From contig CAWJPJ010000005.1 of NCBI GenBank assembly GCA_963844715.1, positions 1 through 64,000 of the forward strand: a stretch of DNA of 64,000 bases, given 5' to 3'. Below, piece after piece: positions 42,801 to 45,800 of the stretch. Made by a program: the position numbers. The stretch's first letter is position 1, and each line of letters opens with the position of its first letter. Origin of the DNA: an uncultured Phycisphaerales bacterium. GTDB lineage: Bacteria; Planctomycetota; Phycisphaerae; Tepidisphaerales; Tepidisphaeraceae.

Positions 42801-45800
42801 CCGCCGCGCCGGCCGAAGCCGTCGAACTGTTTGGCGCGATCTCGTCGGACGTCCTGCCGCGCGAGCAGAAAAATTCCCTTCTGTCGGGCATGGATGAAAA
42901 GGAAGTGAAGGTATGCACACGCTGCCGGTTGTGTGAGTCGAGGAAGCACACCGTATTTGGAGAGGGTGACGCCGACGCCAAAATCTTTTTTATCGGCGAA
43001 GGCCCGGGCGAAAACGAGGATTTGCAGGGGCGTCCGTTTGTTGGGCGGGCCGGGCAGCTACTGGACAAGATGATCGCGGCGATGGGATTGCAGCGCGGGC
43101 AGGTGTATATCGCCAACATCGTCAAGTGCCGTCCGCCGCAGAATCGCACGCCGGCGCCGGACGAAGTCGAGACTTGCACGCCCTATCTGGTCCGCCAGCT
43201 CGAGATCATCCGGCCAAAAGTGATCGTCACGCTTGGACTTCCAGCATCGAAATACATGTTGGACAGCAAACTTTCCATGGGAAAGCTTCGCGGGCAATGG
43301 CACGCGTGGCGCGGAATCAAGCTCATGGCGACGTTTCACCCCGCATTTTTGCTGCGATCCTACACCGAGGAAAATCGCGCCGCCGTCTGGAGCGACCTGC
43401 AAAAAGTGATGGCGGAAGTGGGATTGCCCGCGCCGCGGCGCGGATAAAATCAATGTTGAAAACGCGCAAAAAAAATTCCGCGAGATTTTTTTCGCCCGAC
43501 TCATGCGCAACGCATTGTGAAATAACGTCTGAGATGAAGCGCACATTTTTCACGGCGCGAAATGCAAAGATTTCGCTCTTGCATTATGAGCGCGGGGTAA
43601 TAATCTGTTCGACCAATGGGAACGAATGCAGTGGTCGCGCGTTGTCCGTATTGTTTCCCGACGGTCGGCACTGCAATCCGTTTCGTTTTTCAGGACTAAT
43701 GGACCGGGTCGCCGTTGGCTGAGCGGGCGAACCGGAGATGTAACGATCATTTAAGACAAGAGCTCCGCCGAAGATATCGCCATGTCCATTACTTACTCGC
43801 CTTCGCCGCGCGAGCCGATGCCTCGTCGTGCGCCGGAAGCCATATTCGATCCGTCCCTCTGGCATCAGATTCTCCAGCGGGTTCGGGCCGGCCATCCGAG
43901 CCTCAACCGCGTCTGGTTCGACCAGCTTACGCCCCGGCAGCTGACCAACGGCGTGATCCAGGTCATCGTCGCCAACGCCGCCCAGCTCAATTTCTGCCAG
44001 AGCCAGTGCCAGAAACCCTTTACCAACGCCGCTCAGGAAATCACCGGGCGGCTGGTCTCGGTCATGTTCCACTGCGAGAACCTCGGCGGCGGGGGGGTCT
44101 TCGGCGAGATCGAGCAGCCGCTGCCGCTTAATCCCGATTACACGTTCGATCAGTTCGTGACCGGGCCTTGCAATCGTCTGCCGCACGCGGCGTCGATTGC
44201 CGTCTCTGAACAACTCGGGCGAACCTACAACCCGCTCTTCATCCACGGCGGCGTTGGCCTGGGCAAGACGCATCTGCTCCAGGCAATCTGCCAGCAAGTT
44301 CTGGAGCGACAGCCCGAGGCGAGGATTCTTTATCTCTCCTGCGAGAGGTTCATGAATCATTTCATCGAGACCGTCGAAAAAGGCGACATGATGAAATTCC
44401 GCAATCGGTACCGGCATCTCGACATGCTGGTGATCGACGACATCCATTTCCTGGCCGGCAAGGACCGCACGCAGGAAGAGTTCTTCCACACGTTCAACAC
44501 GCTCTACCAGCAGCAAAAGCAGATCATCCTCAGCGCCGACTGCCCGCCGAGCGAAATTCGCGAGCTTGAAGAACGGCTGGTCAGCCGGTTCAACTGGGGC
44601 CTGGTCGCCCGGATCGACAAGCCGTGTTACGAGACCCGGGTTGCAATTCTGCAAAAGAAAGCCCGGGTCCGGGGACTGACGCTGCCGGACGACGTGCTTT
44701 GCTACGTGGCCGGCAAAGTGGAAAACAACACGCGCGAGCTCGAAGGTGCGATCACCAAACTCCAAGGGATGGGAAACTTGCAAAACGGAAAAATCGACCT
44801 CGACCTGGCGAAAACCGCCCTGGGCGAGAGCAGTGCGGCCGAGCAGCGCCGCGTCACGATCCAGCAGATTCTGGATACCGTCACCAAGTACTACAACGTC
44901 CGCCTCAGCGACCTGCAAAGTAAGCGACGCCACAAAAGCATCGCTTTCCCCCGGCAGGTCTGCATGTACCTCGCCCGCAGGCACACGCGGTATAGCCTCG
45001 AGGAAATCGGCGGCTACTTCGGCGGCCGGGATCACACCACGGTTCTTCACGCCGTCCGAACCGTCGAAAAAGATTGCACGGACGAGCGCGACATCGCCGA
45101 TCAGCTTAACCAGATCGAGGGGCAACTCGTCGCGTGACGAGGCGGTGTGGAGTTCTAAATCCTGGGACTCGCGCTGCGGGGGAGAGGCTCGCGGTGCTGG
45201 GCAGCGCCGCTAAATGGGGAGAGGATCGAGACTGATCCGCCAAGGGCACGGGCGTCCCCTCGCCAATTCGATCTGGCCTCTCTAGAATCCCCGCCACATG
45301 GCGCTGGTCCTCTTTCACACAAGCAAAGTTCGCGAAGCCTTGAAATCGCAGGCGAGCCTGGGCGTGGATTTAATTTTGATCGTCGCCATCGCCGGACTCG
45401 TCGCCGCGGTGGCGATGTGCTTCGGACAAGCCTCCAGTCCGATGCGGCAGACGGTGCACATCGACCTGTCCCTGTGGGCGCTGCCCAAGTACACCATGTT
45501 CAGCCTGGCGCGGCTTCGCGGCGTACATCATCTCACTGGTCTTCACGCTCATTTACGGCACCATCGCCGCCCACAATCACCGGGCGGAAAAAGTCATGAT
45601 CCCGGCGCTGGATATTCTTCAGTCGATTCCCGTTCTGGGGTTCCTGCCGGGTCTGGTCCTGGCGATGATCAGCCTCTTCCCCAATCGCGAAATTGGACTT
45701 GAGCTGGCGTGCGTCATCATGATCTTCACCGCCCAGGTGTGGAACATGACCTTCAGTTTCCACGGCAGCCTGCGATCCATCCCCACCGCCCTGCGCGAAG

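What a model noticed while it worked through the whole genome (the two positions that open the first line are those of the whole stretch)
43782..45137. Two diverged DnaA replication-initiator paralogues, a trait kept across Phycisphaerae
The genome encodes two full-length DnaA-type proteins that are only 38-39% identical: g00698 (C5:43782-45137, 451 aa; AAA+ and DNA-binding domain IV, no recognisable DnaA_N domain I; behind a family-4 uracil-DNA glycosylase gene) and g04744 (C8:534910-536475, 521 aa; DnaA_N + AAA+ + domain IV). Neither lies beside dnaN (C7:136120). Both types are kept in nearly every genome of the class, so this is an old duplication under selection, not a recent copy or a mobile-element gene; replication control in this lineage probably uses two initiator-like proteins.
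Evidence so far: Pfam rows and BLASTP of the two proteins. Pfam Bac_DnaA_C search in 41 Phycisphaerae genomes (25 of the family, 16 of 12 other families): 38 have exactly two hits over the cut-off, 3 fragmented assemblies have one. In each genome one hit lies in a ~450-510-aa frame with 95-108 bits and the other in a ~490-620-aa frame with 56-93 bits. ML tree of both copies from G000 and 10 other genomes: the 11 g00698-type proteins form one clade (100/100, stem 1.59 changes per site) apart from all g04744-type ones. UDG-DnaA adjacency: 77 of 140 family genomes, 184 of all. Phylum sample: 31 of 46 genomes (G000 included) show two or more DnaA homologues with the g00698 query.
(Added by a program. 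Inside this text positions count along the whole contig: contig position 1 is position 1 of the stretch shown here. "Call 12" and the like, gene names such as g00115 and contig names such as C1 are that model's own, and its searches are not shown. The text may have been shortened before it was handed on; [...] marks where a part breaks off. The agent that wrote the report below was given it as the finding of a first reader that could run no searches.)

Follow-up and report, generated by a model that had tools for sequence, protein, structure and literature searches.

The report
Two old DnaA paralogues, divided labour
This bacterium, like every sampled member of its class, keeps two diverged copies of the replication initiator DnaA: the copy in this window is the orthodox one, and the other looks like a specialised partner or regulator.

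Summary
Window 43782-45137 (+) encodes a full-length DnaA (TIGR00362 489.5 bits, cut-off 343.9). A second DnaA (417 bits, 39% identical) lies at C8:534910-536475. All 71 class genomes searched have both.

Three details need correction.
- The window protein does have domain I.
- The second gene, not the window gene, is preceded by DnaA boxes.
- The duplication is older than the class. The second type forms one clade with second copies from at least 15 other Planctomycetota families and shares an upstream GNAT gene with some of them. A class-only duplication is rejected (p-AU 0.0002).

The window copy ("type 1") is the canonical one. It is dnaN-linked in 11 of 30 class genomes and in most other families. 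It keeps the box-contact residues, and in one complete relative it sits at the GC-skew switch.

Type 2 keeps its ATPase motifs. It has lost Arg281 (30 of 32) and changed base-contact residues. It lies 0.7-1.0 Mb from the skew switch in 3 of 3 complete genomes.

In this class type 1 has lost the helicase-contact Phe46 (0 of 30) while type 2 keeps it (31 of 32). That suggests complementary degeneration; no experiment tests it. Two dnaA copies in planctomycetes are already in print as counts.

The parts
42689..43447 (+). Family-4 uracil-DNA glycosylase gene, the upstream neighbour of the window DnaA. This neighbourhood is specific to the window's family.
   Evidence: TIGR00758 210.1 bits, Pfam UDG 134.2. 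A UDG was found beside type 1 only in G000, G149 and G168 among 30 class loci.
43448..43781 (.). Intergenic region upstream of the window DnaA. It holds no DnaA box.
   Evidence: No match to TTATCCACA at <=1 mismatch in C5:42000-46500. No sigma-70-like site upstream of the gene. Across the class, the 800 bp upstream of type 1 hold 9 boxes in 23570 b, which is background level.
43782..45137 (+). dnaA type 1 (g00698, 451 aa): the canonical DnaA orthologue.
   Evidence: TIGR00362 489.5 bits against cut-off 343.9. 44% identical to Listeria DnaA over 94% of its length. Clade with the main or only DnaA of other Planctomycetota families.
43851..44075 (+). Domain I (residues 24-98). Trp6 equivalent kept; Phe46 equivalent replaced by Ala67.
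   Evidence: AlphaFold elements H24-37, H44-48, E50-55, E58-63, H66-88, E93-98 with block pLDDT 85-95. Residue table.
44127..44822 (+). AAA+ domain III with lid. Walker A/B, sensor I, Arg281, Arg285 finger and sensor II Arg334 are all kept.
   Evidence: Pfam Bac_DnaA residues 116-276 and Hda_lid 285-327. Residue table. PDB 8btg_A 377.8 bits over 115-449.
44853..45131 (+). Domain IV, the DnaA-box-binding helix-turn-helix. Arg399, Gln408, Asp433, His434, Thr435 and His439 equivalents are kept; Pro423 is replaced by Glu.
   Evidence: Pfam Bac_DnaA_C residues 360-428, 103.6 bits. PDB 1j1v_A matches residues 358-443. Residue table.

Best explanation
The genome carries two anciently diverged DnaA paralogues that arose before the Planctomycetota classes separated.

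The window gene (type 1) is the orthodox initiator. It is orthologous to the single DnaA of one-copy planctomycete families, was ancestrally linked to dnaN, and keeps Arg281 and the residues that read the DnaA box.

The other gene (type 2, C8:534910-536475) follows a GNAT acetyltransferase gene. It keeps an intact ATP site and arginine finger. It has lost Arg281 and changed several base-contact residues, and in this class it has gained a C-terminal beta-hairpin.

In Phycisphaerae its gene is preceded by a convergent pair of consensus DnaA boxes plus an A/T tract. I infer that it is transcriptionally controlled by a box-reading DnaA, most likely type 1.

In this class type 1 has lost domain-I Phe46 (the DnaB helicase contact in E. 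coli) while type 2 keeps it. I infer that the two proteins have undergone complementary degeneration and act together at the origin, which would explain why neither is ever lost in the class.

Shown: paralogy, orthology groups, synteny, residue patterns, box enrichment and gene positions relative to GC skew. Inferred: who binds the boxes, co-assembly, and any division of labour.
For: Presence: 71 of 71 class genomes have both copies. 84 of 121 phylum genomes have two or more matches.

Phylogeny: all Planctomycetota DnaA rows fall on one side of 9 outgroups (98), with L120 on the wrong side. Class type 1 (99) is nested among the main copies of other families. Class type 2 (96) lies inside a 33-row type-2 clade (97) (IQ-TREE PMSF, 88 rows). 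FastTree with 20 outgroups from 12 or more phyla gives a type-2 clade of 44 rows at 100. AU test: both class types as one clade is rejected, dlnL 111.4, p 0.000225.

Synteny: dnaN lies directly downstream of type 1 in 11 of 30 class genomes and beside most main copies elsewhere. It lies beside 0 of 32 class type-2 loci. A GNAT gene lies upstream of type 2 in 19 of 32 class loci, in L081 (f7), L111 (f39) and L118 (f10), and in 8 of 15 type-2-like named records. It lies beside none of the other 65 named records.

Residues (E. coli numbering): type 1 keeps R281 30/30, Q408 29/30, D433 30/30, H434 30/30, H439 30/30. Type 2 keeps K178, D235/D236, D269, R285 and R334 in 32/32. In type 2, R281 is kept in only 2/32, Q408 in 3/32, D433 in 1/32 (N in 27) and H439 in 0/32. 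In 63 DnaAs labelled as other phyla, R281 is kept in 63/63, D433 in 61/63, and H/Y439 in 61/63.

Phe46: 9/9 outgroups, 49/63 other-phylum rows, 0/30 class type 1, 31/32 class type 2. In f7 the dnaN-linked copy (dnaN seen beside L091 only) is only 340-344 aa and lacks domains I-II, while the type-2 copy is full length.

Boxes: the 800 bp upstream of type 2 hold 43 boxes at <=1 mismatch (15 perfect) in 22956 b, and 24 of 29 loci have at least one. Upstream of type 1 there are 9 (1 perfect) in 23570 b. Background is 0.405 per kb. An unsupervised 8-mer count finds TATCCACA in 14/29 against 1/30.

GC skew: in G160 the sign change falls at about 2.216 Mb, directly upstream of type 1-dnaN, and type 2 is 0.9 Mb away. 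In G119 and G157 type 2 is 0.74 Mb and 0.9-1.0 Mb from the switch.

Literature, passages read in PMC6127211: Phe46 is the primary DnaB-binding site. F46A DnaA alone barely loads DnaB but contributes in mixtures with wild type. R281A impairs stable assembly on oriC.
Against: - No experiment exists and no expression data could be found.
- Outside the class most type-1 proteins keep Phe46 although type 2 is also kept there. Complementation therefore cannot explain retention in the whole phylum.
- In some sampled families the only DnaA detected falls in the type-2 clade or has its signature: G074/f53 and G094/f57, also the long-branch rows of G007 and G029. So type 2 may be a competent sole initiator. 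These genomes are 90-96% complete, so a missed copy is possible.
- Type 2 keeps R399/K, R407, H434 and T/S436. It could still bind the boxes itself, which would be autoregulation.
- In G119 and G157 type 1 is not at the skew switch either; in G157 it lies near the apparent terminus.
- The box pair and the C-terminal insert are not seen in type 2 outside the class: 7 of 17 loci have a box, 0.67 per kb.
- Fast-evolving copies can be drawn together by long-branch attraction. The AU group was named after the tree was seen.
Confidence: 0.55

Rival explanations
1. One reading: the duplication happened in the ancestor of Phycisphaerae, and the second type has no orthologue elsewhere.
For: Retention is strict only in the class (71 of 71). 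Type 2 is only 38-44% identical to anything outside the class. The box pair, the C-terminal insert and the Phe46 pattern are class-specific.
Against: The type-2 clade includes second copies of 15 other families (97; 100). The GNAT-type 2 pair occurs outside the class: f7, f39, f10 and a record labelled Isosphaeraceae groups with f7. The AU test rejects one class clade, p 0.000225.
Confidence: 0.07
2. Type 2 is the working initiator. The box pair plus A/T tract upstream of its gene is oriC, and type 1 is the accessory.
For: The boxes and an A/T-rich tract are conserved upstream of type 2. One complete record (G157) starts at type 2. Some families appear to have only a type-2-like DnaA. Type 2 keeps Phe46.
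Against: Type 2 lies 0.74-1.0 Mb from the skew sign change in 3 of 3 complete class genomes. It also sits inside a stretch of at least 884 kb of uniform skew in G184. Only 2-3 boxes are present. Type 2 has lost R281 and base-contact residues that are invariant elsewhere. In G160 the switch is at type 1-dnaN.
Confidence: 0.08
3. Type 2 no longer takes part in initiation. It is a DnaA-derived, ATP-dependent DNA-binding regulator (a transcription factor or a negative regulator of DnaA, functionally akin to Hda) with its own DNA sites, expressed under DnaA control.
For: Base-contact residues are changed and there is an extra C-terminal hairpin. Type 2 evolves faster: 40-65% identity to the query against 47-73% for type 1. 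Its gene is preceded by consensus boxes. Type 2 was lost in many families: 36 of 121 phylum genomes have a single match.
Against: It keeps domain I with Phe46, the arginine finger and sensor II, which a plain transcription factor would not need. Unlike Hda it keeps domains I and IV, and its TIGR03420 score of 92.9 is below the cut-off of 194.8. The loss of Phe46 from type 1 in exactly the class where type 2 is never lost points to shared work.
Confidence: 0.25
4. Type 2 was acquired horizontally, for example from a plasmid, chromid or phage replicon or from another phylum.
For: It is about equally distant (about 40%) from type 1 and from DnaA of other phyla.
Against: It falls inside the Planctomycetota side of the tree with every outgroup set. 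Its internal branching matches that of type 1. It has a conserved chromosomal neighbour (GNAT). It is present in 71 of 71 class genomes. In the sample, no record labelled as another phylum shows its signature except L213. That row sits at branch lengths 0.078 and 0.13 from a class genome's copy and probably carries a wrong label.
Confidence: 0.03

Closest known systems
Canonical bacterial DnaA (E. coli, B. subtilis; NCBIfam TIGR00362)
   Same: Both copies exceed the equivalog cut-off and have domain I, a linker, an AAA+ domain and domain IV. Type 1 keeps the box-contact residues and, in many relatives, the dnaA-dnaN arrangement.
   Different: There are two copies. In this class type 1 lacks Phe46 and in G000 it is not beside dnaN. 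Type 2 lacks Arg281, has Asn at 433, lacks His439 and carries an extra C-terminal hairpin.
Two dnaA copies counted in Pirellula, Chlamydia and other genera (Schneider et al. 2011, PMC3080875, passages read); three dnaA copies in Ca. Kuenenia stuttgartiensis, one beside dnaN-gyrB at the skew origin (PMC7709395, passages read)
   Same: More than one dnaA in planctomycetes and other PVC bacteria is on record. In Kuenenia the dnaN-linked copy was taken as the origin-defining one, which matches type 1 here.
   Different: In the passages read, those papers give counts or choose a start coordinate. I found no description of orthology groups, GNAT linkage, box control or residue divergence. Whether the chlamydial pair is related to this one was not tested, because no chlamydial sequence was available. 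NF009087 scores of 239 and 181 against a cut-off of 657 show only that neither copy belongs to that equivalog; that NF009087 is the chlamydial DnaA model is my assumption, not shown by any search.
Hda / HdaA (DnaA-related regulators of initiation)
   Same: A DnaA-derived AAA+ paralogue kept alongside DnaA.
   Different: Hda is AAA+ only, whereas type 2 keeps domains I and IV. TIGR03420 scores of 128.1 and 92.9 are below the cut-off of 194.8.
Mixed DnaA oligomers in E. coli biochemistry (F46A or H136A with wild type; PMC6127211, passages read)
   Same: Only a subset of protomers in the origin complex needs Phe46, so a Phe46-less DnaA can work alongside a Phe46-bearing one. This is the logic proposed here for type 1 plus type 2.
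   Different: That is an in-vitro mixture of mutants of one protein. Here it would be a natural pair of paralogues, and that is unproven.

Membership tests
DnaA (TIGR00362 equivalog): window gene, type 1 | Whole-protein score above the curated cut-off, aligned end to end | tested here: met
   489.5 bits against 343.9, model positions 1-436 of 437.
DnaA (TIGR00362 equivalog): window gene, type 1 | Domain I fold at the N-terminus | tested here: met
   AlphaFold alpha-alpha-beta-beta-alpha-beta at residues 24-98, block pLDDT 85-95. Pfam DnaA_N is not reported. That this order of elements is the domain I fold is recalled; no fold search was run.
DnaA (TIGR00362 equivalog): window gene, type 1 | AAA+ motifs: Walker A Lys178, Walker B Asp235/236, sensor I Asp269, Box VII Arg281, Arg285 finger, sensor II Arg334 | tested here: met
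   Each is kept in 30 of 30 class type-1 proteins.
DnaA (TIGR00362 equivalog): window gene, type 1 | Domain IV residues that contact the DnaA box (Arg399, Pro423, Asp433, His434, Thr435, His439; the list is recalled from the 1J1V structure paper) | tested here: met
   R/K399 30/30, D433 30/30, H434 30/30, T/S435 30/30, H439 30/30. Pro423 is Glu in 26/30.
DnaA (TIGR00362 equivalog): window gene, type 1 | Domain I Phe46 patch for helicase binding (E. coli; PMC6127211) | tested here: not met
   Phe in 0 of 30 class type-1 proteins; Ala67 in the window protein.
DnaA (TIGR00362 equivalog): window gene, type 1 | Gene beside dnaN and/or at the replication origin | tested here: inconclusive
   Not in G000, where dnaN is on C7. 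Yes in 11 of 30 class genomes, and at the skew switch in G160. Not at the switch in G119 or G157.
DnaA (TIGR00362 equivalog): window gene, type 1 | Binds DnaA boxes and unwinds oriC | not testable with these tools
   Needs biochemistry or ChIP.
DnaA (TIGR00362 equivalog): second gene, type 2 | Whole-protein score above the cut-off | tested here: met
   417.6 bits, model positions 3-424. The last 30 residues fall outside the model.
DnaA (TIGR00362 equivalog): second gene, type 2 | Box VII Arg281 and base-contact residues Gln408, Asp433, His439 | tested here: not met
   In 32 class type-2 proteins, R281 is kept in 2, Q408 in 3, D433 in 1 and H439 in 0. In 63 rows labelled as other phyla, R281 is kept in 63, D433 in 61 and H/Y439 in 61.
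Hda / DnaA regulatory inactivator (TIGR03420) | Score above the cut-off; AAA+-only architecture | tested here: not met
   128.1 (type 1) and 92.9 (type 2) against a cut-off of 194.8. Both have domains I and IV.
NF009087 (PRK12422) DnaA equivalog | Score above the cut-off of 657 | tested here: not met
   239.1 (type 1) and 181 (type 2). Kinship with the chlamydial paralogues themselves was not tested.

The most novel reading that the evidence does not exclude
In Phycisphaerae chromosome replication is started by an obligate mixed complex of two DnaA paralogues that have split the ancestral protein's tasks. Type 1 reads the DnaA boxes and builds the stable oligomer (Arg281, domain IV) but can no longer recruit the helicase through domain I. 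Type 2 has a diverged DNA-reading head, supplies the Phe46 helicase contact, and is itself produced under DnaA-box control. This would be a natural two-subunit bacterial initiator. The related family f7 would show a parallel outcome, with type 1 reduced to domains III-IV.
Probability: 0.25. Interest if true: 0.85.

Novelty: new variant of a known kind. Interest (0 to 1): 0.6.

Why it matters

This is a whole class in which two diverged DnaAs are never lost, with reciprocal loss of residues that E. coli genetics ties to helicase binding, stable assembly and box reading. It would be a natural experiment in dividing the initiator's functions.

It gives concrete, testable predictions for cultured Phycisphaerae. 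It also gives practical markers for telling the two types apart when choosing genome start coordinates or predicting oriC: dnaN versus GNAT neighbour, Arg281, Asp/Asn433 and His439. At least two sets of complete records in the sample start at a copy that is not the full-length canonical one.

Tried and rejected
- The search of earlier findings was not open.
- No RNA holder was listed for the type-2 locus, so nothing can be said about expression.
- The Atlas search returned only generic DnaA clusters.
- The text of PMC7203096 is held only in part, and no DnaA passage could be read.
- GC skew of G000 did not give an origin.
- The G-rich-word map of G168 is dominated by Gly-repeat genes.
- The skew minimum of G119 (944017) lies inside an ABC ATPase gene with no box cluster, so its oriC is not located.
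- dnaN upstream regions carry boxes in only 11 of 30 genomes (1.16 per kb): enriched, but inconsistent.
- The promoter and terminator scan found nothing upstream of the window gene.
- A PMSF tree of 111 rows did not finish and was replaced by FastTree.
- Complex prediction was not used. A DnaA-DnaA pass would rest on likeness to solved DnaA filaments and would not separate hetero- from homo-oligomers.
- Rows left out of the 88-row tree: the longest-branch second copies (for example L083, L084, L089-L098, L112-L114, L122-L129, L148-L151), half of the class genomes, and fragments (L099, L153, L154, L156).
- Start codons were taken as the first ATG/GTG/TTG of each open frame. Some N-termini are therefore too long (for example L008 at 698 aa and L007 at 559 aa), which may hide boxes in those two loci.
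Full report
**1. What is in the window**

The ORF at 43782-45137 (+) encodes 451 aa. It scores 489.5 bits on NCBIfam TIGR00362 (DnaA equivalog, cut-off 343.9), aligned over model positions 1-436 of 437. 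Pfam gives Bac_DnaA 227.7 bits and Bac_DnaA_C 103.6 bits, but no DnaA_N.

An AlphaFold model built on 25 class orthologues has mean pLDDT 88.4. It shows an alpha-alpha-beta-beta-alpha-beta unit at residues 24-98 (block pLDDT 85-95), a very short linker, the AAA+ domain and domain IV. Domain I is therefore present.

The neighbours are:
- an RNase D-like gene,
- a deoxyhypusine-synthase-like gene,
- a family-4 UDG directly upstream (42689-43447),
- ABC transporter genes downstream.

**2. The second copy**

G000 has two matches over the TIGR00362 cut-off. The second is C8:534910-536475 (521 aa), with 417.6 bits, DnaA_N 41.3, Bac_DnaA 190.5 and Bac_DnaA_C 88. The two proteins are 39% identical over 338 residues.

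Its model (24 sequences, pLDDT 83.8) has these parts:
- domain I at residues 9-83,
- a disordered linker at 91-165,
- the AAA+ domain,
- domain IV at 414-487,
- an extra beta-hairpin (491-504) before the last helix, block pLDDT 90-97.

dnaN is on another contig, at C7:136120.

**3. Distribution**

In 71 class genomes at least 85% complete, 71 have two or more matches at E<=1e-30. Of these, 69 have two; G126 and G071 have three because one gene is split at contig ends.

In a phylum sample of 121 genomes, 120 have a match, 84 have two or more and 36 have one. Matches are not copy numbers.

Record titles of the closest relatives found in genome contigs read Phycisphaerales, Sedimentisphaerales and Phycisphaerae.

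**4. Age of the duplication**

I collected DnaA frames from four sources:
- 29 class genomes,
- 51 genomes of other families,
- 9 named outgroups taken from E. coli K-12 and from chromosomal records filed as plasmids,
- named records from genome contigs.

The IQ-TREE tree (LG+C20 PMSF, short search, 88 rows x 442 columns) gives the following.
- All Planctomycetota rows except the long-branch L120 fall on one side (SH-aLRT 98).
- The 16 class type-1 rows form a clade (99) nested among the main copies of other families (a 35-row group, 94).
- The 16 class type-2 rows form a clade (96) inside a 33-row clade (97). That clade also holds copies from f7, f10, f50, f39, f12, f53, f46, f29, f43, f23, f27, f16, f30, f57 and f11.

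FastTree on 153 rows, and on 111 rows with 20 outgroups that include Verrucomicrobiota, Omnitrophota and Sumerlaeota, gives the same picture. The type-2 clade there has 44 rows at support 100.

Forcing the 32 class rows into one clade costs 111.4 lnL units, p-AU 0.000225. I named that group after seeing the tree. Long-branch attraction among fast copies remains a caveat.

**5. Synteny gives independent support**

- dnaN lies directly downstream of type 1 in 11 of 30 class genomes (f64, f65, f67, f68, f69, f70, f75, f76). It also lies beside most main copies of other families.
- dnaN also lies beside several short or diverged copies: L089, L091, L120, L122, L129 and L149.
- dnaN lies beside 0 of 32 class type-2 loci.
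- A GNAT acetyltransferase gene lies directly upstream of type 2 in 19 of 32 class loci, in L081 (f7), L111 (f39) and L118 (f10), and in 8 of 15 type-2-like named records. It lies beside none of the other 65 named records. Flanks were only about 1.5 kb, so misses are possible.
- The UDG neighbour of the window gene is confined to family f1: G000, G149 and G168.

**6. Residues**

Numbering is anchored on the E. coli protein.

| Residue (E. coli) | Class type 1 (n=30) | Class type 2 (n=32) | Other phyla |
|---|---|---|---|
| Trp6 | 26 | replaced by hydrophobics | 8/9 |
| Phe46 | 0 | 31 | 9/9; 49/63 |
| Lys178, Asp235/236, Asp269, Arg285, Arg334 | 30 | 32 | 9/9 |
| Arg281 | 30 | 2 | 9/9; 63/63 |
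| Gln408 | 29 | 3 | 9/9 |
| Asp433 | 30 | 1 (Asn in 27) | 9/9; 61/63 |
| His434 | 30 | 32 | 9/9 |
| Thr/Ser435 | 30 | Ser 22, Thr 5, Ala 5 | Thr 8/9 |
| His439 | 30 | 0 | 9/9; His/Tyr 61/63 |

In the last column, 9 = the named outgroups and 63 = the rows labelled as other phyla.

Further points:
- Arg245 is Ala in 28 of 32 type-2 proteins.
- Pro423 is Glu in 26 of 30 type-1 proteins.
- Among 14 one-copy planctomycete families with a type-1 protein, position 46 is Phe in 9 and aromatic in 13.

The roles of Phe46, Arg281, Arg285 and Val211/Arg245 are taken from passages of PMC6127211. The list of box-contact residues is recalled from the 1J1V structure work. The chain itself matches residues 358-443 of the window protein.

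The Phe46 column is anchored by the neighbouring Asn44, Leu48 and Trp50 equivalents in the window protein (Asn65, Leu69, Phe71). Ala67 is the Phe46 equivalent.

**7. DnaA boxes**

G000 has only 22 perfect TTATCCACA sites in 4.55 Mb. One, plus a 1-mismatch partner, lies 450 and 400 bp upstream of type 2. Another lies 190 bp upstream of dnaN. None at <=1 mismatch lies near the window gene.

| 800 bp upstream of | Boxes at <=1 mismatch | Perfect | Bases | Loci with a box |
|---|---|---|---|---|
| Class type 2 | 43 | 15 | 22956 | 24 of 29 |
| Class type 1 | 9 | 1 | 23570 | 6 of 30 |

Background in the same loci is 0.405 per kb.

The usual pattern upstream of type 2 is a convergent pair 22-90 bp apart, followed by an A-tract/T-tract. 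An unsupervised 8-mer count recovers TATCCACA in 14 of 29 loci against 1 of 30.

Outside the class the enrichment is weak: 7 of 17 loci, 0.67 per kb. The C-terminal insert is also absent there. The median tail after the H-T-T-V motif is 48 residues in class type 2, against 35-37 in all other groups.

**8. Position relative to the origin**

The skew of G000 itself is uninterpretable (see section 11). I mapped strand skew in complete relatives using the strand of a G-rich word.

- G160: the minus-to-plus change falls between 2.00 and 2.35 Mb. Local skew changes sign at about 2.216 Mb, just upstream of type 1-dnaN, next to a window of 65% A+T. Type 2 (1.281 Mb) is mid-arm.
- G119: the change falls between 912 and 949 kb, with the cumulative minimum at 944017. 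dnaN is at 0.855 Mb, type 2 at 1.682 Mb and type 1 at 3.149 Mb.
- G157 (61 word hits): the change falls between 2.87 and 3.02 Mb. dnaN is at 3.174 Mb, type 2 at the record start, and type 1 at 0.966 Mb near the apparent terminus.
- G184, the closest relative: the first 100 word hits across 884 kb of the contig that carries type 2 are all on one strand.

Type 2 is therefore never at a skew switch. Type 1 is at the switch only where it is still linked to dnaN.

**9. Reading**

Type 1 is the canonical DnaA. Type 2 is an old paralogue whose ATP-dependent oligomerisation machinery is intact, but whose DNA-reading head and Box VII arginine have diverged.

The fates across the phylum fit duplication followed by differential loss and complementary degeneration:
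- Many families kept only type 1.
- A few sampled families show only a type-2-like protein: G074/f53 and G094/f57, at 96% and 90% completeness.
- f7 kept a dnaN-linked copy (dnaN seen beside L091 only) reduced to domains III-IV (340-344 aa, at the start of the complete records) plus a full-length type 2.
- Phycisphaerae kept both, with Phe46 only in type 2 and Arg281 plus box-contact residues only in type 1.

E. coli biochemistry shows that a Phe46-less DnaA can contribute to helicase loading when mixed with a Phe46-bearing one (PMC6127211). That makes a mixed complex plausible, but it is inference. A regulator role for type 2 is the main rival.

**10. What is known**

- A survey of 1,067 complete genomes found dnaA once in 95.2% and twice in 3.7%. 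It listed two Pirellula genomes, with Chlamydia and others, as two-copy (PMC3080875, passages).
- Three dnaA copies were reported in Ca. Kuenenia stuttgartiensis, with the dnaN-gyrB-linked one taken as origin-defining (PMC7709395, passages).
- My searches of the held library found no analysis of the two types, their synteny, box control or residue divergence. Subscription journals are not covered.

The copy number as such is therefore not new. The phylum-wide orthology groups and the class-specific complementary pattern appear to be new.

**11. Unexplained in passing**

G000 shows 12 sharp minus-to-plus skew switches against 3 sharp plus-to-minus ones. Between them the skew decays gradually over 200-400 kb, with amplitude up to about 30%.
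- There is no simple link to coding strand (r from -0.03 to -0.48 with crude ORF calls).
- There is no box cluster within 3 kb of the switches.
- Some switch surroundings share near-identical repeats of 0.9-1.0 kb.
- The closest relative and three complete class genomes show ordinary long arms.

Rearrangement or assembly joins in G000 are therefore the economical reading, although the up/down asymmetry is not explained by that.

Noticed in passing
G000 contigs C5-C8 (for example C5:144226, C7:415771, C8:195478; the window is C5:1-64000): GC skew is a sawtooth. There are 12 sharp minus-to-plus switches (about -20% to +15..25% within 5 kb) against 3 sharp plus-to-minus ones, with gradual decay over 200-400 kb. 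It is not tied to coding strand, and no DnaA-box cluster lies at the switches. Some switch regions share 0.9-1.0 kb repeats at 99.8-100% identity. Relatives G119, G160, G157 and G184 show ordinary long arms.
   Followed up: partly
window 47070-48435 (+): An ABC transporter ATPase gene appears split over three reading frames. ABC_tran covers 47070-47705, truncated at profile position 124 of 137. An overlapping frame at 47588-48043 has no family. AAA_assoc_C covers 47914-48435. This is either two frameshifts (a pseudogene) or indel errors of the assembly.
   Followed up: no
G000:C7:521405-521494: The densest DnaA-box cluster of the genome: 4 boxes at <=1 mismatch within 100 bp, in an A/T-rich intergenic stretch. 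It is not at a skew switch. It is a candidate DnaA-binding site of unknown role.
   Followed up: no
G000:C7:135928-136120: A perfect TTATCCACA and a TTATCCCCA lie 190 and 115 bp upstream of dnaN, in an A/T-rich region. Boxes upstream of dnaN occur in 11 of 30 class genomes.
   Followed up: partly
L091 (G055:1-2517), L093 (G035:1-2505): Two complete genomes of family f7 start at a DnaA of only 340-344 aa that lacks domains I-II (dnaN was found beside L091 only). Their full-length DnaA is the GNAT-linked type 2, elsewhere on the chromosome.
   Followed up: partly
L067-L070 (G176, G119, G054, G033): In family f3 type 2 has grown to 593-693 aa and scores only about 254 bits on TIGR00362. In the two complete f3 genomes (G119, G176) it lies about 45% of the chromosome away from type 1.
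   Followed up: no
L152 and L155 (G101): One genome of family f30 has two nearly identical type-2 copies (branch lengths 0 and 0.005) besides a dnaN-linked copy. This is a recent extra duplication of type 2.
   Followed up: no
L213: A record labelled Anaerolineales (Chloroflexota) carries a type-2 DnaA almost identical to that of class genome G146 (branch lengths 0.078 and 0.13). The label or the binning is probably wrong.
   Followed up: partly
plasmids collection, hits H1-H96: Dozens of records filed as plasmids carry a chromosomal dnaA, often with dnaN, and are up to 11.8 Mb long. They are chromosomes or chromosome pieces filed as plasmids.
   Followed up: no
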